From: Bacillales bacterium | GTDB taxonomy: Bacteria; Bacillota_I; Bacilli_A; RF39; UBA660 | DNA length: 45,242 nt | NCBI GenBank assembly: GCA_016288305.1 | Contig: JAEEYW010000042.1 | Span: 1-45,242, forward strand | Reading direction: 5' to 3' | Shown here: piece by piece, positions 1-35,402 of the stretch | How the letters are laid out: each line of letters starts with the position of its first letter | How positions within the stretch are numbered: the stretch's first letter is position 1 | Position numbers and translations under genes: made by a program | Notes under the pieces: generated by a model | What the model saw: only the letters and a program-made list of their open reading frames with translations | Databases searched by the model: none | Told to the model about the DNA's origin: nothing

Positions 1-1032
1 AAATGCTTTTTTTGCATATGTCATGTCTGGTTCAATTATTTTTAATTCAACAAGTTGATCAATAATATTAGAAACTACATTTCTTGAAACACCAGACTGT
101 TCTTCAACTTCCTTTTTTGTGAATATTATTTGCTTCATGATTACTGGCATTATTCTATAAACAGAATTACCATTTATTTGTTTGATTTTTTCCATATCTT
201 TTTTATAAATATTTTTTATGGAATTAATTTTTATAATATAATTATTGCATTGTTCAATTACACATTGCAAAAAGAATTTAATATATCCAAGCATATTTCC
301 TTTTCGACTCTCATTTAAAAATTTATGATAACTAGGTTTGTATATTTCAATTACTTCTGATAAAAATAATATTGGTTCACTATTGCTTAATAATGATAAT
401 TGAATTGGAATAAGTGTTCTACCTAATCGGCCATTACCATCACGATAGGCGTGTATTGTTTCAAATTGAGAATGCGAAATAGCAAGATTGACAAAAATTG
501 GATCGATAAACGCATCATTCATATATTCTAATAAATTAGAAAGATAAAAAGGAATATCTTCTGGAATAGGAGGAATAAAAATTGCTGTCTCCAACGTAGA
601 ACCTTTCCCACCTATCCAATTTTGAGTAGTTCTAATTTTACCAGGTTCTTTTTCACTACCTCTAACACTATTTAATAAAATTTTATGCATATTATTAATT
701 AATTTCAAATCTATTTTATGATTATCATTAAGATATTTAGTAGCATATTCAATAGAATCTTTTAGGTTTTGTATTTCTTTATTATCATCTGTTTGGGGAA
801 GGTATTTAAGATAAAATAATTCATCTTGTGAAATTTGTGTGCCTTCAATTTGGGTTGATTTTAAACTTTCACTTAATAATATTGAATCTAAAAAGTATCT
901 TGAATCAAATTCTAATGTATTAATTAGAGATTTATATTCGCCATATTTTTCGTTAGCTTCAGAGATTAATTTAAGTAAGTCTTTGTCAATATTATATTCT
1001 ATAGGAAGTTTTGCAGGTTTAAATGGTTCCAT
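1..1032 (-). CDS. Fic/DOC family protein (AMPylase-type); the 3' end runs off the window
   Basis: This ORF is absent from the ORF track because it has no stop codon in the window. Manual minus-strand translation from the ATG at 1032-1030 gives MEPFKPAKLPIEYNIDKDLLKLISEANEKYGEY... and stays open to base 1. The Fic motif HAYRDGNGRLGR is encoded at about 418-453. An inhibitory-helix type motif STQIEG ([ST]xxxE[GN]) lies near the N-terminus, and the tail is wHTH-like (KKEVEEQSGVSRNVVSNIIDQLVELKII). Confidence 0.85.
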   Translation of the reverse strand, partial: MEPFKPAKLPIEYNIDKDLLKLISEANEKYGEYKSLINTLEFDSRYFLDSILLSESLKSTQIEGTQISQDELFYLKYLPQTDDNKEIQNLKDSIEYATKYLNDNHKIDLKLINNMHKILLNSVRGSEKEPGKIRTTQNWIGGKGSTLETAIFIPPIPEDIPFYLSNLLEYMNDAFIDPIFVNLAISHSQFETIHAYRDGNGRLGRTLIPIQLSLLSNSEPILFLSEVIEIYKPSYHKFLNESRKGNMLGYIKFFLQCVIEQCNNYIIKINSIKNIYKKDMEKIKQINGNSVYRIMPVIMKQIIFTKKEVEEQSGVSRNVVSNIIDQLVELKIIEPDMTYAKKAF

Positions 1033-5095: not shown

Positions 5096-5099
5096 ATTT

Positions 5100-5124
5100 A
5101 AAAGATGTTAGAAACATCTTTTAA
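5100..5124 (-). terminator. Terminator-like hairpin overlapping the stop codon of the YfcC-like gene
   Basis: The minus strand reads AAAAGATGTT-TCT-AACATCTTTT followed by AAATTT. The U-tract is weak. Confidence 0.35.
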
Positions 5125-8056: not shown

Positions 8057-9295
8057 TTAGTATCTTGTAGTTCTATTATACCAATCTTGATACTTAACAC
8101 TTGGTACATTAATAAACTTTTCTGGATTTAACCATCCTGAACGATATGACCAGAAATTATTAATATCGAAATTAGCAGTACTCATCTCCAAATGTAAATG
8201 AGCTCCACTTGTCAATGTATCAGGTATACTACATCCTCTTTCGTATACATTACCACCAAGTAAACCAATTTGTGTATACTTAGTAACAACATCACCTTTT
8301 TCAACATCTATACGCCTTAAATGCCAATAAGAACTTATATATAAAGTACCATTAACATTGTGTTGAATATATACTTTTCTACCGCCATCTCCACAAGTAT
8401 CATATACAGCAATAACAACACCATTAGCTATAGAATAAAGTGGTATATCGCTAGAAGTCGCTCCATCAGCTGACATATCAAGTCCATGGTGAACAGCTCC
8501 TGTTCCAGAAATACCAATATCACCTCTATAACCAGACCAGCCTGTAATATATCCAGCTTCAAGTGGTCTTAAGAAGCCATTATCTTGAGGTATCTTGTTT
8601 TTAGCACATTCATCAAGAGTCTCGTTATCTTTACATCCCATTTCCTCAAATGTTGATATCAAATCCTCTGATAATTGTATTTGTGACTCAATACTTAATG
8701 AGTCATCATATAAGTCTTGTAAGTCATTACCTAATTTAACTAAATAAGCATTTAACTCATTTTGTTTAACTTCTAATTCTCTTACTTTAACTAATAATTC
8801 TTCCGTTTTCTTTTTACTAGCTTCTACATCTTTTTTATACTTCTCTACTAAATCATTATTATATGCAGTTAATTGCTCAGATATAGCAGCACGGTAAATA
8901 AAATCAGTAAATGTTTTAGCTCCAAAAGCATACTCTAAATACGCCGATTCACCATTAGAAATTTGATAGAAAGCTAAAATATCCTTAATTTCTTGTTCCT
9001 TAGCGGCAATATTATCATTTAAGATATCTATTTCTTTATATAACTCCGCTATATCATTTTGTGTTTCCATGATATTATCTTCTGTTATTCGAATATTTTC
9101 CTTAGTTGTTTCTCTTTCCTCAGCCGTTAACTCTTGTTGTAGTTTATTATCCTCGTATTGTTGCTTAAAATCAGCTAGCTCCTGCTTAATTTGTCCAAAT
9201 GTTCTATCATCAGTAGCAGCTAAAACATCAGGAACATACATATTAGCAAGCAATATACAAAAAGCTAAAGTAACATATAATAATTTCTTTATCAT
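8057..9295 (-). CDS. M23 family metallopeptidase with an N-terminal coiled coil (EnvC/PcsB-like murein hydrolase or activator)
   Basis: The protein has a signal/anchor sequence, about 200 aa of heptad-rich coiled coil, and then HHGLDM...YWHL...GAHLHLE M23 metal-ligand motifs. The SD is GAGGAG. Confidence 0.85.
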   Translation of the reverse strand: MIKKLLYVTLAFCILLANMYVPDVLAATDDRTFGQIKQELADFKQQYEDNKLQQELTAEERETTKENIRITEDNIMETQNDIAELYKEIDILNDNIAAKEQEIKDILAFYQISNGESAYLEYAFGAKTFTDFIYRAAISEQLTAYNNDLVEKYKKDVEASKKKTEELLVKVRELEVKQNELNAYLVKLGNDLQDLYDDSLSIESQIQLSEDLISTFEEMGCKDNETLDECAKNKIPQDNGFLRPLEAGYITGWSGYRGDIGISGTGAVHHGLDMSADGATSSDIPLYSIANGVVIAVYDTCGDGGRKVYIQHNVNGTLYISSYWHLRRIDVEKGDVVTKYTQIGLLGGNVYERGCSIPDTLTSGAHLHLEMSTANFDINNFWSYRSGWLNPEKFINVPSVKYQDWYNRTTRY

Positions 9296-17873: not shown

Positions 17874-17906
17874 TAAAAAAAAAGTATTATTTTCAATAAT
17901 ACTTTT
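17874..17906 (-). terminator. Rho-independent terminator after the 130-aa pilin-like gene
   Basis: The minus strand reads AAAGTATTATT-GAAA-AATAATACTTT followed by a run of T. Confidence 0.6.
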
Positions 17907-25344: not shown

Positions 25345-26220
25345 TTATTTGTCAATTAAAGTATCTATTTTGCTTATTAATAAATTACAGACATCTATAT
25401 CATTAATTAGTGTGATACTAAAAGTTTTATACCCTATTCTATTGATACTTGTCCCACAATGATATATTAAAGTATCATCTAATATAAAATACCTATCATG
25501 AAAGGTATTATTATATATAACTTTAAGATTATGATACTGTTTATTATATTTATTAATATCTTCTTTAGTTAGTAATTTATCTGTTGTTATCAATATAACT
25601 TCTATATCTAATCTTTTAATAATATCTAATACATTATAATCGGCATAGCTATCAATAATTATTAAATTACTTTTAGCTTCACTACATATTTCTAATATTT
25701 TACTTCTAGCATCATATATTTGGCCTTCAAAATATATTTCATTTATTTTTTTCTTCTCTTCAAATTTATCAAGAGCAGCTTCTATCAATTGTATACGATT
25801 ATCATGTTCTAACATTTTTGCTTCAACATTTGATAAACGATATACATTATTATCTATATAATGTCGCATGGCTACAAAAGCATCCATTATTTGAATTGAA
25901 GTTTGTATAGCATAATCACTTTTCAAAATTGTAGCAAGCATAGCTACGCCTTGTTCTGTAAACACTCTTGGGTTTTTATACTTTCCTCCGCGTGTTTCAA
26001 TTTTTTGGTCGAAATTTTCGACCAAAAAACATTTGCTCTCATAATCAGTTAGTTTCCAACAAAATCTCTCAGGAAATTTTTTGTAGTTATTTTTTACCGC
26101 TTCATTTATTCTTTTAGTCTCAACATGATATAGGTTAGCTAAATCTGAATCCAGCATTACTTGTTTACCTCTTATTTCATATATTTTATTTTTGATATCG
26201 TTATCTATAACATCAAGCAT
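25345..26220 (-). CDS. ORF6N (KilA-N-like) domain protein with conserved C-terminal HDR-motif module, copy A (291 aa)
   Basis: IYEIRGKQVMLDSDLANLY...FPERF...FTEQGVAMLA is the ORF6N signature. The C-terminal FEGQIYDA...IIIDSYAD...FHDRYFILDD..YHCGTSINRIGYK matches the long ORF6N family. The SD is AGGAGGTGA. Confidence 0.85.
   Translation of the reverse strand: MLDVIDNDIKNKIYEIRGKQVMLDSDLANLYHVETKRINEAVKNNYKKFPERFCWKLTDYESKCFLVENFDQKIETRGGKYKNPRVFTEQGVAMLATILKSDYAIQTSIQIMDAFVAMRHYIDNNVYRLSNVEAKMLEHDNRIQLIEAALDKFEEKKKINEIYFEGQIYDARSKILEICSEAKSNLIIIDSYADYNVLDIIKRLDIEVILITTDKLLTKEDINKYNKQYHNLKVIYNNTFHDRYFILDDTLIYHCGTSINRIGYKTFSITLINDIDVCNLLISKIDTLIDK
26001..26029. repeat. Perfect palindrome inside copy A (14-bp arms, 1-nt centre)
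   Basis: TTTTTTGGTCGAAA-T-TTTCGACCAAAAAA; it encodes FLVENFDQK. Confidence 0.9.
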
Positions 26221-26291
26221 ATTCTCACCTCCTACTAACTATATACGACAAAAAAAGGTAGATATTTAGTATACCGTCCACGTCCATTCTC

Positions 26292-26314
26292 TAAGGTCAC
26301 AATTTGTGACCTTA
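26292..26314. repeat. Perfect palindrome in pseudogene core C2 (11-bp arms)
   Basis: TAAGGTCACAA-T-TTGTGACCTTA; it encodes LRSQIVTL. Confidence 0.9.
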
Positions 26315-26504
26315 AAGCTGCATATTCTTGTTTAGTTATTTCAAAATAAAAGTCATTAGGAAATCTTAAAGCATTTCTCCTAACAGCTTGATTAATCTCT
26401 TTCGAACCATTTTTACGAAGAGCCGAAGAAAGCATAGCAACACCCTGTTCAGTAAATACGTGAGGTCTATTGTATTTTCCACCACGTTTTTCAATAAATC
26501 TTTT

Positions 26505-26527
26505 TTTGGTTTCAATTTGAAACCAAA
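26505..26527. repeat. Perfect palindrome in pseudogene core C1 (11-bp arms)
   Basis: TTTGGTTTCAA-T-TTGAAACCAAA; it encodes WFQIETK. Confidence 0.9.
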
Positions 26528-26748
26528 TAATTTTGCTTTCTTCTTCTGTTAACTGAAAATAAAAATCTGAAGGAAATCTGTTAATATTTCTTCTAACAGC
26601 TAGATTAATAGATTTGGTTCCATTTTACAATGATAAAGTCTAGCTAAATCAGAATCCAGCATTACTTGTTTACCTCTTATTTTATATATTTTATTCTTTA
26701 TATCTATATCAACCACTTCTTGCATATTTTTACCTCCTACTAACTAAA

Positions 26749-27630
26749 TTAAAAATCCGAAATCTCACTAATACACTTAACAAGCACATTAATCACATCT
26801 ATATCACTAATTAAATTAACACTAAAAGTTTTATACCCTATTCTATTGATACTTGTCCCACAATGATATACTAATGTATCATCTAATATAAAATACCTAT
26901 CATGAAAGGTATTATTATATACTACTTTAAGATTATGATACTGTTTATTATATTTATTAATATCTTCTTTAGTTAATAATTTATCTGTTGTTATTAATAT
27001 AACTTCTATATTTAATCTTTTAATTATATCTAATACATTATAATCGGCATAACTATCGATAATTATTAATTTACTTTTAGCTTCACTACATATTTCTAAT
27101 ATTTTACTTCTCGCATCATATATTTGCCCTTCAAAATATATTTCATTTATTTTTTTCTTTTCTTCAAATTTATTGAATGATTCTTGTAATAGTTTTACAT
27201 CATTATCCAGTTCTAAAACTTTAGTTTCTACATTTGATAATCTATATTCGCTATTACCTATGTAATGTCGCATAACTACAAATGCTCGCATTATAGATAT
27301 TGATACTTCTTCAGCTATTTCGGTATCAATTACTGCTGAAAGCATAGCTACCCCCTGTTCTGTAAATACATATGGCATATAGCGTCTACCACCATAGTTA
27401 CTTAATCTTGAGGTTCCAAATTGGAACCTCAAGTTTTGATACTCAGCAGATGTCAATTGAAAATAAAAATCATTAGGAAATCTATCAATATTTCTCTTAA
27501 CAGCTTTATTAATATCCTTAGTTCCATTTTTACAATGATATAACTTAGCTAAATCACTATCCAACATTACTTGTTTACCTCTTATTTCATATATTTTATT
27601 TTTGATATCGTTATCTATAACATCCATCAT
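26749..27630 (-). CDS. ORF6N (KilA-N-like) domain protein with conserved C-terminal HDR-motif module, copy B (293 aa)
   Basis: The architecture matches copy A. The first 27 aa and aa ~150-270 are nearly identical to copy A, while the middle differs (KNGTKDINKAVKRNIDRFPNDFYFQLTSAEYQNLRFQFGTSRLSNYGGRRYMPYVFTEQGVAMLS). Confidence 0.85.
   Translation of the reverse strand: MMDVIDNDIKNKIYEIRGKQVMLDSDLAKLYHCKNGTKDINKAVKRNIDRFPNDFYFQLTSAEYQNLRFQFGTSRLSNYGGRRYMPYVFTEQGVAMLSAVIDTEIAEEVSISIMRAFVVMRHYIGNSEYRLSNVETKVLELDNDVKLLQESFNKFEEKKKINEIYFEGQIYDARSKILEICSEAKSKLIIIDSYADYNVLDIIKRLNIEVILITTDKLLTKEDINKYNKQYHNLKVVYNNTFHDRYFILDDTLVYHCGTSINRIGYKTFSVNLISDIDVINVLVKCISEISDF
27407..27433. repeat. Perfect palindrome inside copy B (13-bp arms)
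   Basis: CTTGAGGTTCCAA-A-TTGGAACCTCAAG; it encodes LRFQFGTSR. Confidence 0.9.
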
Positions 27631-27708
27631 AATTTCACCTCCTACTAACTATATACGACAAAAATATATCAAATTCCTTCTATTAAACAAAAAAAGTATT
27701 AATTTAAG

Positions 27709-27735
27709 CTTGAAGTTTCAAATTGAAACTTCAAG
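27709..27735. repeat. Perfect palindrome in remnant D (13-bp arms)
   Basis: CTTGAAGTTTCAA-A-TTGAAACTTCAAG. Confidence 0.9.
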
Positions 27736-27896
27736 TAAAGCGTGCATAATAGATATTGAAGTTTCTAATGCCACCTCAGTATGAAGAACCGAAGAAAGCA
27801 TAGCCACCCCCTGTTCTGTGAATACATACGGTAATTTGCGAACGCCTCCATAATTATTATTATATTTTTGATTTCGTTATCTATAACATCCAGCAT
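27709..27896 (-). pseudogene. ORF6N remnant D: leader plus 11 N-terminal codons, internal deletion, FTEQGVAML segment, then an isolated palindrome fragment
   Basis: The ATG at 27896 gives MLDVIDNEIKN. Homology then resumes out of frame as NNYGGVRKLPYVFTEQGVAMLSSVLHTEVALETSISIMHA. This is followed by the 27709-27735 palindrome, which in another frame reads LKFQFETSS. The same leader TCACCTCCTACTAACTATATACGACAAAAA is at 27901-27930. Confidence 0.75.
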
Positions 27897-27953
27897 ATTT
27901 TCACCTCCTACTAACTATATACGACAAAAATATGCAATTTCCTTTTTAAGTAA

Positions 27954-34470: not shown

Positions 34471-35373
34471 ATGAAGGAAGAAATTAAAAGAATAATTATA
34501 CTTGTTATCGCTATTATAGCGGTTATTGTTGTTATTAAATTAATTCAAAATAAAGATACAACAATCAAAGATTTACAAAAAAAAGGATATACTGATCAAG
34601 AGATAACAATTCTTTTAGATAATCTTAATGGTGAAGAAATCAAAAATGTTCTTGGTAGTGAATATAATAAATATCTACCTAAATTATTAAGCAATAAATA
34701 TTTCATCAAAGATCATTTACAAAAATATTTAGAATTCTGTAAAAACAACGATAACGTTGATGAAGTAATAAGTATTATCAATGTAGGCGCTGATAAAGAT
34801 TGGTATAAAAATACTAAAGAAGTTGAAAATACTGATTCATTATCAATGCTTGTTAATAAATTTCATTATTTGCCAGCAACATACGCGCCAGATGATATCG
34901 TTCCTATAAAGAACTGGTATGCTTATGATGGTCATTCTATTAAAGATGAGGTATATACACAATTCATTAAAATGTGGGAAGATGCCAAAGATGAGGGATT
35001 AAATTTAATTATCAATTCTTCTTATAGAACATTTGAAGATCAACAAGAAATATATGATAGTTCAAATGATGATTATGCTTCTAAACCAGGTTTTTCAGAA
35101 CATCAAACAGGTTTAGCTTTAGATATTGTTACATATGATAGTATGGATAACGAATTTGAAAAAACAGATGAATTTAGATGGTTACAAAATAATGCTTATA
35201 AATATGGTTTTATCCTAAGATATCCTAAAGGAAAAGAGTTCTTAACAGGATATGCATACGAATCATGGCATTATAGATATTTAGGTGTTGACCTAGCTAC
35301 TAAAGTATATAAGAGCGGTTTAACATATGAAGAATACTATGCTTACTATTGTGAATATAAAAGTGAATGTTAA
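34471..35373 (+). CDS. M15 family D-Ala-D-Ala carboxypeptidase (VanY-like), membrane anchored
   Basis: SYRTFEDQ...SEHQTGLALDI...ESWHYRYLG zinc-ligand motifs and an N-terminal TM helix are present. Confidence 0.85.
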   Translation: MKEEIKRIIILVIAIIAVIVVIKLIQNKDTTIKDLQKKGYTDQEITILLDNLNGEEIKNVLGSEYNKYLPKLLSNKYFIKDHLQKYLEFCKNNDNVDEVISIINVGADKDWYKNTKEVENTDSLSMLVNKFHYLPATYAPDDIVPIKNWYAYDGHSIKDEVYTQFIKMWEDAKDEGLNLIINSSYRTFEDQQEIYDSSNDDYASKPGFSEHQTGLALDIVTYDSMDNEFEKTDEFRWLQNNAYKYGFILRYPKGKEFLTGYAYESWHYRYLGVDLATKVYKSGLTYEEYYAYYCEYKSEC

Positions 35374-35402
35374 AGGGAATCTAAAATTAGATTCCCTTTT
35401 TT
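35374..35402 (+). terminator. Terminator between convergent genes
   Basis: AGGGAATCTA-AAAT-TAGATTCCCT followed by TTTTT. Confidence 0.7.

What the first reader, a model, noticed from the sequence alone, without database searches (positions are those of the whole stretch)
26001..27735. Five different perfect palindromes over the same ORF6N protein motif, four at the homologous codon position (compensatory variation)
Five ORF6N core sequences are present in this locus, and each carries a perfect palindrome with 11-14 bp arms and a single central A/T. They are A 26001-26029 TTTTTTGGTCGAAA-T-TTTCGACCAAAAAA; C2 26292-26314 TAAGGTCACAA-T-TTGTGACCTTA; C1 26505-26527 TTTGGTTTCAA-T-TTGAAACCAAA; B 27407-27433 CTTGAGGTTCCAA-A-TTGGAACCTCAAG; and D 27709-27735 CTTGAAGTTTCAA-A-TTGAAACTTCAAG. 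In A, B, C1 and C2 the palindrome sits at the same place in the protein, between FPxDFxFxLT and GGxxxxPxxFTEQGVAML. There it encodes LVENFDQ, LRFQFGTSR, WFQIETK and LRSQIVTL respectively. The arm sequences differ between copies, yet both arms change together: TCAC/GTGA gives S..V, TTCC/GGAA gives F..G, and TTTC/GAAA gives F..E. The amino-acid pairs therefore look dictated by nucleic-acid complementarity. A 22-28 bp perfect palindrome is not expected by chance in 2.6 kb, let alone five of them. In the scrambled remnants the palindrome is what survives, and rearrangement junctions lie close to it. This suggests a DNA cruciform or RNA hairpin element embedded in the DNA-binding-domain coding sequence. 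Possible roles include a self-operator, a recombination or template-switch hotspot, or an RNA processing site. If the pattern is general across the ORF6N family, I believe it has not been described.
Basis: partly seen in the sequence, partly recalled or inferred. Interest (0 to 1): 0.85.

Follow-up and report, generated by a model that had tools for sequence, protein, structure and literature searches.

The report
Conserved DNA palindrome inside ORF6N genes
Nearly every gene for the widespread ORF6N DNA-binding domain carries, at one fixed spot in its coding sequence, a 27-33 bp near-perfect DNA palindrome that is conserved as DNA rather than as protein, most likely the protein's own binding site, and this appears not to have been described.

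Summary
The five palindromes are the only ones of their kind in the 45 kb window (chance expectation 0.18).

**Family-wide.** In 188 non-identical ORF6N domain sequences, retrieved through peptide patterns away from the motif, 186 carry a palindrome at the homologous position. 121 are perfect over 12 pairs. Hosts span several phyla and 23-64% GC.

**Nucleotide-level, not peptide-level.**
- Synonymous shuffles give arms of 5.1 nt against 12.2 observed.
- Rare codons (AGG, CAA, TCA) are fixed there in high-GC hosts.
- 13 of 15 pairs covary.
- The same core is read in two reading frames (LRSKISTS versus LVENFDQ).
- The encoded peptide is a helix end plus a disordered loop.

**DNA rather than RNA.** G·U is no commoner than A·C.

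**Sequence-specific.** The core is GGTNNMAAWTTKNNACC, and only k=4,5 follow genome GC.

**Non-coding copies.** Identical or near-identical copies lie before the gene's ribosome-binding site, in arrays beside ORF6N genes, and alone in viral contigs.

**The proteins.** They match the defence candidate PDC-S05: ORF6N, a coiled coil and a PLD-like domain, with a TrmB-like architecture.

**Best reading (confidence about 0.4).** The palindrome is the dyad-symmetric site of the dimeric ORF6N protein, a gene-embedded self-operator. Hairpin-templated correction would keep it perfect. Binding is untested.

The parts
26749..27630 (-). Gene B: full-length ORF6N + coiled coil + PLD-like protein (293 aa), PADLOC PDC-S05
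   Evidence: ORF; Pfam ORF6N E 3e-34; PDC-S05 E 1e-88; AF2 model and fold search giving TrmBL2, NucT, Zucchini
27407..27433 (.). Palindrome B, CTTGAGGTTCCAA-W-TTGGAACCTCAAG (13-nt arms; 16-nt arms at 94% over 27404-27436). Encodes LRFQFGTSR, the end of helix 61-70 plus a disordered loop. Centre on codon position 1.
   Evidence: (DNA hairpin -12.8 kcal/mol, z -6.8)
25345..26220 (-). Gene A: full-length paralogue (291 aa), PDC-S05
   Evidence: About 97% identical to B over the first ~136 aligned nt (leader plus ~32 codons) and over ~360 nt of the 3' part; about 55% in the central cassette
26001..26029 (.). Palindrome A, TTTTTTGGTCGAAA-W-TTTCGACCAAAAAA (14-nt arms). Core GGTCGAAAWTTTCGACC is read in the alternative frame (FLVENFDQK), with the centre on codon position 2.
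   Evidence: The same core is read as LRSKISTS in L078, L060 and L129
26412..26725 (-). Fragment C1: frameshifted ORF6N remnant (profile positions 1-34 and 35-104)
26505..26527 (.). Palindrome C1, TTTGGTTTCAA-W-TTGAAACCAAA (11-nt arms; WFQIETK)
26256..26414 (-). Fragment C2: ORF6N remnant (profile positions 34-87), truncated where the conserved leader of gene A begins
26292..26314 (.). Palindrome C2, TAAGGTCACAA-W-TTGTGACCTTA (11-nt arms). Centre 83 nt upstream of A's ATG.
27709..27735 (.). Palindrome D, CTTGAAGTTTCAA-W-TTGAAACTTCAAG (13-nt arms). Centre 92 nt upstream of B's ATG. Differs from B's internal palindrome at two pair positions.
27733..27896 (-). Fragment D: scrambled remnant. The first ~12 codons are fused to profile positions 74-119, with the palindrome displaced to the 3' side.
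27171..27534 (-). Variable central cassette of B (aa ~32-155: most of the DNA-binding domain plus the coiled coil). The counterpart in A is ~25767-26124.
   Evidence: pairwise alignment
27631..27660 (-). Conserved leader with ribosome-binding site, TTTTTGTCGTATATAGTTAGTAGGAGGTGA. Also present at 26221-26250 and 27897-27926.

Best explanation
The palindrome is a sequence-specific, dyad-symmetric cis-acting DNA element, which I call the ORF6N box. Its universal core is GGTNNMAAWTTKNNACC and its common form is AAACTTGAGGTNNCAAWTTGNNACCTCAAGTTT. It travels inside the coding sequence of the ORF6N DNA-binding domain.

The most likely function is as the cognate binding site of the dimeric ORF6N protein itself. 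That would make it a self-operator built into the gene. The protein binds its own coding DNA about 215 nt after the start codon and, in some loci, a second copy at the promoter or 5' UTR. Expression is then autoregulated in whatever genomic context the mobile gene lands.

Perfect symmetry, including at the two positions per arm that are free to vary (k=4,5), would be kept by intrastrand hairpin-templated correction, that is, quasipalindrome template switching. A change in one arm is either reverted or copied to the other arm. This produces the 'compensatory' amino-acid pairs F..G, F..E, S..V, S..A and C..G.

Shown:
- The element exists, is family-wide, and is constrained at the DNA level and in sequence.
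- It is independent of reading frame.
- It recurs in non-coding positions next to the genes.

Inferred:
- ORF6N binds it.
- Binding regulates the gene.
- Template switching is the symmetrising force.
For: 1. Family-wide. 186 of 188 non-identical ORF6N sequences have >=9 of 12 Watson-Crick pairs at the same centre, and 121 are perfect. They were retrieved with peptide patterns outside the motif. More distant members at 31-42% identity, on Legionella and Segatella plasmids and in 59-66% GC viral contigs, also have it.

2. Constraint is on nucleotides.
- Synonymous shuffles give 5.1 nt against 12.2 nt observed.
- In loci of >=48% GC, CAA is used 21/21 times inside the palindrome against 30% outside. 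AGG is 21/24 against 9%, and TCA is 22/38 against 8%.
- The same core is translated in two frames, repeatedly and within one subfamily.
- The encoded peptide is a helix end plus a loop with pLDDT around 43.

3. DNA rather than RNA. There are 2146 Watson-Crick pairs, 25 G:T, 35 A:C and 26 other.

4. Sequence-specific, not just structural. Palindrome GC stays at 0.37, 0.42 and 0.41 while the rest of the domain goes 0.30, 0.41, 0.54. Positions k=1,2,6,9,11,12 are always A:T and k=3,7,8,10 are G:C. Only k=4,5 track genome GC.

5. Non-coding copies at regulatory positions.
- L184: 29/29 identical, between an upstream stop codon and the ribosome-binding site.
- L155: 26/26 identical, abutting AAGGAG, in a 57% GC locus.
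- L072: exact inverted copy.
- Upstream versus own internal copy: 10 of 21 differ at <=5 of 26 positions against a null mean of 8.7; no permutation in 5000 reached the observed mean.
- L018: four tandem units upstream of a TTGACA-17-TAAAAT promoter keep the box invariant except for NN and the centre, while the spacers are 50-65% identical.

6. The protein is built like a dimeric DNA-binding regulator. It has ORF6N, a helix spanning residues 104-157, and a PLD-like domain, and its best full-length structural match is TrmBL2/TrmB. The short form is ORF6N plus a ~56-aa coiled coil. In tandem paralogues the variable cassette covers exactly the DNA-binding domain plus the coiled coil, and each paralogue has its own box.

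7. Template switching is documented to homogenise inverted-repeat arms (abstracts of PMC7202029 and PMC8604942, seen). About one third of boxes carry one mismatch, as expected for a mutation-correction equilibrium.
Against: - No binding data exist, and no ORF6N-DNA structure or known ORF6N specificity was found.
- Only about 10-15% of genes have an upstream copy within 150 nt. About half of those are no more similar to the internal copy than random pairs.
- The 3-4 kb Segatella plasmids carry only the internal copy.
- A protein that ignores k=4,5 does not by itself explain why those positions stay complementary. The model needs the additional, untested mutational mechanism or binding to an extruded form.
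- Many orphan copies are demonstrably relics of decayed ORF6N genes, so their presence need not mean function.
- If specificity differs between paralogues, protein and site must co-evolve although the site encodes part of the protein. That is an unusual constraint.
Confidence: 0.4

Rival explanations
1. The box acts as a structure-dependent DNA element. It works as an extruded cruciform, or as a hairpin in single-stranded DNA during conjugative or phage entry or lagging-strand synthesis. A structure-specific factor recognises it, or it serves as a hotspot for deletion, duplication or gene conversion that drives birth and death of ORF6N paralogues. It would not be a duplex operator of ORF6N.
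For: - Strict Watson-Crick complementarity holds even at the sequence-free positions k=4,5, with four pair types.
- The AT-rich centre CAAWTTG and arms of 13-19 nt give DNA hairpins of -9 to -13 kcal/mol.
- Bacteroidota copies sit in ICE-like contexts that transfer as single-stranded DNA.
- One D deletion junction abuts a palindrome.
- The motif is duplicated in-frame in L031, L014 and L089.
- Arrays of relics lie beside genes.
Against: - A purely structural element should drift to GC-rich stems in GC-rich hosts. Instead 10 of 12 stem positions keep a fixed base identity.
- The A/B mosaic boundaries are not at the palindrome.
- No resolvase, HUH or recombinase gene is consistently adjacent. 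The window has none.
- Cruciform extrusion of 13-bp arms in vivo is generally inefficient (own knowledge).
Confidence: 0.2
2. The palindrome has no function and is mutationally self-perpetuating. An ancestral quasi-palindromic coding motif (LRxQ[FI]xTS) was perfected and is kept perfect by template-switch correction. It persists in genes, in alternative frames and in relics simply because correction outpaces decay.
For: - Relics keep perfect palindromes while the flanking coding sequence decays.
- The fraction of perfect copies is similar in intact genes (64%) and in relic arrays.
- Mismatch types look like raw mutational input: 60 transition-type against 26 transversion-type, with no G.U filter.
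- Template-switch homogenisation of inverted-repeat arms is established.
Against: - Under neutral paired evolution the stem should follow genome composition, but only k=4,5 do.
- Rare codons are fixed in high-GC hosts.
- Copies identical to the internal box, without any flanking homology, sit exactly before ribosome-binding sites in unrelated lineages.
- In L018 the box is invariant while adjacent non-coding spacers diverged.
- No other gene in the window has such a palindrome.
Confidence: 0.15
3. The element works as an RNA hairpin in the ORF6N mRNA and in 5' UTRs. It would be a translational operator, an RNase III or stability determinant, or an attenuator, possibly bound by the ORF6N protein.
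For: - The hairpin is stable, and covariation is strong.
- Upstream copies often lie in the likely 5' UTR right next to the Shine-Dalgarno sequence, for example in L155.
- Two identical palindromes in one transcript could also pair with each other. The L072 upstream copy is the exact reverse complement of the internal one.
- On the antisense strand the B, A and C1 hairpins are followed by T runs.
Against: - G.U pairs (25) are no more frequent than A.C (35) among 2232 pair cells. An RNA stem would tolerate G.U preferentially.
- No Rfam family matches.
- There is no U tract on the sense strand, and none at all in high-GC examples.
- In L018 the copies lie upstream of the promoter.
- ORF6N/KilA-N is a DNA-binding fold (Pfam; own knowledge).
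Confidence: 0.1
4. The box is a site-specific recombination site, with ~10-12 bp inverted arms around a 7-bp CAAWTTG crossover region. A tyrosine or serine recombinase would use it to shuffle or invert ORF6N cassettes, as in a shufflon.
For: - The architecture resembles recombinase core sites, and the centre is the most conserved part.
- Tyrosine integrases are adjacent in ~10 loci and on a Legionella plasmid.
- In L072 the two copies are exact inverted repeats flanking the ribosome-binding site and the first ~70 codons.
- Tandem paralogues and fragments occur in several loci.
Against: - No recombinase lies in or near the window locus or in most loci.
- All five window copies are in direct orientation with different arms.
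- Hybrid boxes combining two arm types are rare, and most imperfect boxes have a single mismatch.
- Segments between array palindromes have no coding capacity.
- The A/B cassette boundaries are not at the box.
Confidence: 0.07

Closest known systems
Operators and centromere sites inside coding sequences: lacO2 in lacZ, galOI in galE, the PurR box in purB acting as a roadblock, and parS inside spo0J/parB (own knowledge)
   Same: A dyad-symmetric protein-binding site lies within an ORF. For parS it lies in the gene of the protein that binds it. Such sites can pair with a promoter-proximal copy.
   Different: Those sites are single-locus, imperfect and sequence-conserved without covariation. The ORF6N box is inherited with a whole domain family (25,541 clusters at 50% identity). 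It is near-perfect, covaries at 13 of 15 pairs, and is kept across two reading frames. Binding has not been shown.
Coding palindromes in Nematomorpha mitochondrial genes (PMC6649704)
   Same: Perfect inverted repeats are embedded in functional protein-coding genes, both arms code, and protein and secondary structure are preserved together.
   Different: Those repeats are long (up to 284 bp), numerous per genome and not tied to one protein family or position. The ORF6N box is one 27-33 bp sequence-specific element at a fixed position of one bacterial or mobile-element domain, with non-coding copies nearby.
Quasipalindrome template-switch mutagenesis and homogenisation of inverted-repeat arms (PMC7202029, PMC8604942, PMC13100816; abstracts)
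   Same: It supplies a mechanism that copies a change from one arm to the other. This gives multinucleotide 'compensatory' changes, including in coding DNA and in sites for dimeric transcription factors.
   Different: It is a mutational process, not an element. It has not been reported to maintain a single palindrome across a protein family and several phyla.
Structure-conserved hairpin sites: integron attC, REP elements with RAYT transposases, IS200/IS605 ends (own knowledge)
   Same: Arms covary, and recognition can be of folded single strands. Orphan copies and arrays occur.
   Different: Those are extragenic, imperfect (extrahelical bases matter) and linked to an integrase or HUH enzyme. 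None of that is seen here, and the ORF6N box has a fixed base identity at most stem positions.
PADLOC PDC-S05 phage-defence candidate and TrmB-family regulators
   Same: A and B match PDC-S05 models end to end. One PDC-S05 representative was reported to reduce plating of T7, T5 and T4 (bioRxiv 10.1101/2024.09.26.614923). The domain order of DNA-binding domain, coiled coil and PLD-like domain mirrors TrmBL2/TrmB.
   Different: Nothing in those descriptions mentions a cis element. The tested PDC-S05 protein carried a RhuM annotation and may be a different subfamily. TrmB uses a winged helix, not ORF6N.

Membership tests
ORF6N domain (Pfam PF10543) | Profile match above the gathering score | tested here: met
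   A scores 100.5 bits and B scores 117.6 bits against a cut-off of 27.8. Fragments C2 (47.8) and C1 N-terminus (29.4) also pass.
PADLOC PDC-S05 (single-gene phage-defence candidate) | Full-length match to a PDC-S05 model | tested here: met
   PDLC04869 gives E 3e-85 for A and 1e-88 for B, covering residues 4-287 of 293 in B.
PADLOC PDC-S05 (single-gene phage-defence candidate) | Confers phage resistance | not testable with these tools
   There is only a literature report for one other representative.
PLD/HKD nuclease superfamily (C-terminal domain) | PLD fold | tested here: met
   Foldseek hits to NucT 6ehi (E 3e-6), Zucchini 4ggj (E 7e-6) and Nuc 1byr (E 3e-5). Pfam finds no family for this domain.
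PLD/HKD nuclease superfamily (C-terminal domain) | Catalytic HxK(x)4D(x)6GSxN motif | tested here: inconclusive
   The motif here is H243-D-R245-x4-D250-x7-G258-T-S260-I-N262. H243, R245, D250, G258, S260 and N262 are invariant in 60 homologues. The lysine is replaced by arginine, so activity is unknown.
Autoregulatory operator of a dimeric DNA-binding protein | Dyad symmetry with conserved half-sites | tested here: met
   The half-site is WTTGAGGTNNCAA, with fixed base identity at 10 of 12 positions regardless of host GC.
Autoregulatory operator of a dimeric DNA-binding protein | A copy at the gene's own promoter or 5' UTR | tested here: inconclusive
   A copy is present in 21 distinct gene/site pairs out of ~186 genes. 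Ten are (near-)identical to the internal copy, and no permutation in 5000 reached the observed mean distance. It is absent in most loci and on the small plasmids.
Autoregulatory operator of a dimeric DNA-binding protein | Bound by the gene product, and binding changes expression | not testable with these tools
   Needs EMSA, ChIP or reporter assays.
Structured RNA element or Rfam family | Match to a curated covariance model | tested here: not met
   There is no hit near any gathering score. The best hit at a palindrome is rivX at 13.7 bits against a cut-off of 100.
Structured RNA element or Rfam family | Wobble (G.U) tolerance on the transcribed strand | tested here: not met
   25 G:T against 35 A:C among 2232 pair cells.
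Intrinsic transcription terminator | GC-rich hairpin followed by a U tract on the transcribed strand | tested here: not met
   The sense strand has no T run. T runs occur only on the antisense strand of B, A and C1. High-GC examples have none on either strand.
Site-specific recombination site (shufflon or inverton) | Cognate recombinase encoded nearby and copies in a recombinable arrangement | tested here: not met
   There is no recombinase in the window locus. An integrase is adjacent in only ~10 of ~190 loci. The window copies are direct and non-identical.

The most novel reading that the evidence does not exclude
The ORF6N box and the ORF6N domain form a self-referential recognition module. 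The DNA that encodes part of the DNA-binding domain is that domain's own target, and paralogues diversify protein and site together as specificity cassettes.

In the defence proteins (ORF6N + PLD-like, PDC-S05), box polymorphism would then provide self/non-self discrimination. The protein tolerates or is regulated by its own box. It recognises foreign boxes carried by invading phages, ICEs and plasmids, which carry ORF6N genes, relics and free-standing boxes. Alternatively it recognises the box only when folded as a hairpin in incoming single-stranded DNA.
Probability: 0.15. Interest if true: 0.95.

Novelty: new variant of a known kind. Interest (0 to 1): 0.85.

Why it matters
ORF6N is a very large family. 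It has 25,541 clusters at 50% identity and is found on phages, ICEs, plasmids and defence islands. Part of its Pfam 'protein' signature, L[RK]xQ[FI]xTS, turns out to be the shadow of a DNA element.

- **For annotation.** Conserved residues in this motif should not be read as functional protein positions.
- **For molecular evolution.** This is a clean, family-wide case where DNA symmetry dictates amino-acid pairs and survives frame changes.
- **For gene regulation.** If the self-operator reading is right, it is a portable, promoter-independent autoregulation module. It would also give an immediate handle on the unknown DNA specificity of ORF6N/KilA-N proteins.
- **For phage defence.** It opens a route into the mechanism of the PDC-S05 defence candidates.
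- **For genome surveys.** The orphan boxes offer a marker for decayed ORF6N genes.

Tried and rejected
- **Rfam** at E<=10 over the locus gave nothing relevant.
- **PDB sequence search** with protein B gave nothing.
- **Pfam** on the C-terminal half alone found no family.
- **Terminator reading** was rejected. T runs occur only on the antisense strand and not in general.
- **Palindromes as A/B recombination boundaries** was rejected. The boundaries lie at about aligned columns 136 and 500, and the palindrome at about 237-265.
- **Promoter scan** of the locus was no better than shuffles, 29 sites against 23, so I did not use it.
- **Phage GenBank records** hold the domain in only 5 of 50,697 records, too few to use.
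- **Integrase adjacency** as a general feature was rejected.
- **Literature searches** found no description. I searched ORF6N, KilA-N with palindrome or inverted repeat, 'own coding sequence' with autoregulation, PDC-S05, and six literal box sequences.
- **Peptide-motif explanation** (the palindrome follows from conserved amino acids) was rejected by the shuffle, codon-usage and two-frame results.
- **Assembly artefact** was rejected, because the box is present in complete isolate plasmids and genomes.
- **Not done:** I did not build a covariance model, because a 27-nt hairpin carries too little information to search with.

Full report
**1.

The five palindromes are at the stated coordinates with the stated sequences. 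A scan of the whole 45,242-nt window (27.7% GC) for perfect palindromes with arms >=11 nt and a loop <=1 nt finds exactly these five. Composition-matched random sequences give 0.18 per window.

The genes are on the minus strand.
- A (25345-26220) and B (26749-27630) are full-length proteins with an N-terminal ORF6N domain.
- C1, C2 and D are fragments.
- The locus lies between priA and a YqeH-like GTPase gene.

**2. It is a property of the family, not of this locus**

I fetched relatives using peptide patterns from the N-terminus (IYEIRG, VMLDSDLA). These lie outside the motif, so they cannot bias codon choice at the palindrome.
- 80 loci came from reference genomes.
- About 36 came from IMG/VR.
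- 80 came from metagenomes.

A profile search gave 188 non-identical near-full ORF6N coding sequences.
- In 186 of them, at least 9 of the 12 positions k=2..13 around the same centre are Watson-Crick paired.
- 121 have 12/12 and 48 have 11/12.
- The apparent exceptions are quasi-palindromes with one or two mismatches.

Hosts include Bacilli and RF39-like MAGs, many Bacteroidota, Campylobacterota, Saccharibacteria, Veillonella and Lachnospiraceae, plus soil, freshwater and gut metagenomes of 23-64% GC. More distant members also carry it. These share 31-42% identity and come from Legionella conjugative plasmids, 3-4 kb Segatella copri plasmids and 59-66% GC viral contigs. One 68% GC locus (L174) has lost it. 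The domain family holds 25,541 clusters at 50% identity with E<=1e-3.

**3. The constraint is on nucleotides, not on the peptide**

- *Shuffle test.* Permuting synonymous codons within each gene, with the protein unchanged, gives a mean longest arm of 5.1 nt against 12.2 nt observed. In 76 of 113 genes none of 200 permutations reached the observed value. This null is conservative, because the amino acids have themselves been shaped by the palindrome.
- *Codon usage.* In 23 loci of >=48% GC the palindrome uses CAA for Gln 21/21 times, against 30% elsewhere in the same domains. It uses AGG for Arg 21/24 times against 9%, and TCA for Ser 22/38 times against 8%.
- *Covariation.* On 134 distinct 35-mers, 13 of 15 pairs show changes on both sides. 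There are 374 such cells against 138 in shuffles (0 of 500 reach it). The covariation score is 0.463, against 0.157 for shuffles and 0.04-0.14 when partners are slid by 1-3 columns.
- *Two reading frames.* GGTCGAAAWTTTCGACC encodes RSKISTS in L078, L060 and L129. It encodes LVENFDQ in window gene A, L052 and L053. GGTCGCAAWTTGCGACC encodes RSQIATS or VVANCDH. GGTCAAAAWTTTTGACC encodes RSKFLT or VVKNFDH. Both phases occur within one closely related subfamily.
- *Structure.* In an AlphaFold2 model of B (mean pLDDT 77), the left arm encodes the end of helix 61-70. The right arm encodes a loop, residues 71-81, with pLDDT below 50. This explains why the protein tolerates both the amino-acid pairs and the frame change.

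**4. DNA rather than RNA**

Among 2232 pair cells on the coding strand there are 2146 Watson-Crick pairs, 25 G:T, 35 A:C and 26 others. An RNA stem would tolerate G.U far better than A.C, and here it does not. No Rfam family matches. The hairpins are not followed by a U tract on the sense strand.

**5. The element is sequence-specific, not merely self-complementary**

The GC content of the 27-nt palindrome is 0.37, 0.42 and 0.41 in low-, mid- and high-GC hosts. The rest of the domain goes from 0.30 to 0.41 to 0.54.
- Positions k=1,2,6,9,11,12 are always A:T.
- Positions k=3,7,8,10 are G:C.
- Only k=4,5 follow the genome.

The core common to both frames is GGTNNMAAWTTKNNACC. The centre is A or T in non-coding copies too.

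**6. The same element occurs outside coding sequence**

A scan of all fetched loci (797 kb) found 166 perfect palindromes inside ORF6N domains and 79 elsewhere. Many of the latter are of the same type. They fall into three groups.

*(a) A single copy just upstream of the gene.*
- In L184 a 29-nt copy identical to the internal one lies between the stop codon of an upstream gene and the ribosome-binding site.
- In L155 (57% GC) a 26-nt identical copy abuts AAGGAG.
- In L072 the upstream copy is the exact reverse complement of the internal quasi-palindrome.
- In none of these do the flanks share similarity.
- Over 21 such pairs, 10 differ from their own internal copy at <=5 of 26 positions, against a null mean of 8.7. 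No permutation in 5000 reached the observed mean.
- The other 11 pairs are no more similar than chance, and about 85-90% of genes have no such copy.

*(b) Arrays.*
- L006 has about 11 boxes in 970 bp of non-coding DNA upstream of the gene.
- L007 has 6 boxes downstream.
- L018 has 4 boxes in ~120-bp tandem units upstream of a TTGACA-17-TAAAAT promoter.
- Several keep 50-100 nt of residual similarity to ORF6N coding sequence and are therefore relics.
- In L018 the box is invariant in all four units except for NN and the centre, while the neighbouring non-coding spacer is only 50-65% identical.

*(c) Free-standing copies in viral contigs.* The exact pattern TTGAGGTNNCAANTTGNNACCTCAA occurs 50 times in IMG/VR. 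21 are in ORF6N genes and 29 are outside, mostly in no long ORF.

In the window itself, D and C2 are relics. They sit 92 and 83 nt (centre to ATG) upstream of the start codons of B and A.

**7. What the genes are**

A and B match the PADLOC phage-defence candidate PDC-S05 end to end. A preprint reports that one PDC-S05 representative lowers plating of T7, T5 and T4 by 10- to 1000-fold.

The model shows an ORF6N domain, a long helix (residues 104-157) and a C-terminal domain.
- The C-terminal domain has a PLD fold, matching NucT, Zucchini and Nuc.
- The best full-length matches are the archaeal DNA-binding proteins TrmBL2 and TrmB, which have the same order of DNA-binding domain, coiled coil and PLD-like domain.
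- The HKD-like motif is HxR...D...GTSxN and is invariant in 60 homologues.

A second architecture, ORF6N plus a ~56-residue coiled coil, carries the box equally. Bacteroidota copies lie in ICE-like neighbourhoods with topoisomerase III and a large methylase. About ten loci lie next to a tyrosine integrase.

A and B are about 97% identical over the leader plus the first ~32 codons, and over ~360 nt of the 3' part. They are only about 55% identical in between. The variable cassette is the DNA-binding domain plus the coiled coil, and the palindrome lies inside it, not at its edges.

**8. Most likely mechanism**

The facts call for a DNA-level, sequence-specific, dyad-symmetric element that is tied to a DNA-binding domain likely to act as a dimer. 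The element recurs at the regulatory region of the same gene.

The simplest reading is that it is the domain's own binding site. An operator carried inside the gene would give promoter-independent negative feedback to a gene that is constantly moved between contexts. Established precedents for operators in coding DNA are lacO2, galOI, the PurR roadblock in purB, and parS inside spo0J (own knowledge).

Divergence of exactly the DNA-binding domain, coiled coil and box between tandem paralogues fits insulated specificities. This step is inferred.

Binding alone does not explain why the two free positions per arm stay complementary. For that I invoke quasipalindrome template switching, which is documented to homogenise inverted-repeat arms. 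With 13-19-nt arms and a 1-3-nt loop it would be efficient. The observed share of boxes with one or two mismatches (about one third) is what a mutation-correction balance would give. This step is also inferred.

I put this reading at about 0.4.

**9. Rivals**

- *Purely structural DNA hairpin or cruciform element* (0.2). It fits the strict pairing and the ICE context, but not the fixed base identities.
- *Function-less, self-perpetuating palindrome* (0.15). It fits the relics and the mismatch spectrum. It does not fit the composition independence, the precisely placed identical upstream copies, or L018.
- *RNA hairpin* (0.1). It is disfavoured by the wobble test.
- *Recombination site* (0.07). 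It lacks a recombinase and recombinant products.

**10. Novelty and caveats**

I found no description in Rfam or in the papers searched. That includes searches for the literal sequences.

The nearest analogues are intragenic operators, the coding palindromes of Nematomorpha mitochondria, and template-switch homogenisation of inverted repeats.

Caveats:
- There is no binding or expression evidence.
- Most sampled sequences share >=45% identity with the queries, and deeper branches are represented by about 20 sequences.
- Orphan copies are partly relics.
- Horizontal transfer inflates the counts of identical boxes, for example the Bacteroidota ICE group.

Noticed in passing
window 25345-26220 vs 26749-27630: The two full-length paralogues are mosaics. 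The leader plus the first ~32 codons, and ~360 nt of the PLD-like part, are about 97% identical. The central ~360 nt (DNA-binding domain plus coiled coil) is about 55% identical. This looks like concerted evolution of the ends with a diversified specificity cassette.
   Followed up: partly
L198 8363-9346 (palindrome at 9018) and L215: An ORF6N-type box with one mismatch, TTGAGGTCTCAATTTGCGACCTCAA, lies inside a 328-aa PD-(D/E)XK nuclease gene (Pfam PF12705, DUF3799) of a viral contig. It is read in a third frame as KLEVSICDLKT. It could be a target site, a captured box or chance (roughly 0.1 expected in the collection, my own rough estimate).
   Followed up: partly
L235 (NZ_CP152354.1, 2955 bp) and L236 (NZ_CP152486.1, 4140 bp): Two cryptic Segatella copri plasmids encode only a replication initiator and a short alternative-frame ORF6N protein. 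Each carries a single box, inside the ORF6N gene.
   Followed up: partly
L031 2970-3390, L014 3000-3462, L089 1494-1875; protein P0069: The palindrome-encoding segment is duplicated in-frame within one ORF, for example ...ILRFQSVSLKLNN-QDLRFQIETSNEQ... This suggests local duplication around the hairpin.
   Followed up: no
proteins P0002, P0009, P0012, P0016 and P0121-P0137: Many relatives of 400-470 aa contain two or three ORF6N domains in tandem. I did not check whether each repeat carries its own box.
   Followed up: no
L020-L059 (Bacteroidota genomes): The ORF6N-PLD gene sits in a conserved ICE-like neighbourhood next to topoisomerase III, a DUF3945-like protein and a large N6-methylase or helicase. 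The box there is almost invariant: AAACTTGAGGTTCCAAWTTGGAACCTCAAGTTT.
   Followed up: partly
window 5098-5124, 17880-17906, 35372-35399: Three other perfect palindromes (12-13-nt arms, loops of 2-3 nt) of unrelated sequence. They are probably intergenic terminators. I did not examine them.
   Followed up: no
window 27407-27443, 26001-26039, 26505-26537 (plus strand): On the strand antisense to the genes, the B, A and C1 hairpins are followed by T-rich tails and score as terminator-like. They could stop antisense transcription. This is not a general family feature.
   Followed up: partly
L225 8559-8583 and about 10 related IMG/VR contigs (L190, L193, L194, L218, L219, L228, L234): A free-standing box, TTGAGGTCTCAAWTTGAGACCTCAAG, sits between two same-strand genes. 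It lies just after the stop of a gene whose C-terminus I read by eye as a T9SS (Por) sorting signal, and about 45 nt before the next start. No ORF6N gene lies in the fetched flanks.
   Followed up: partly
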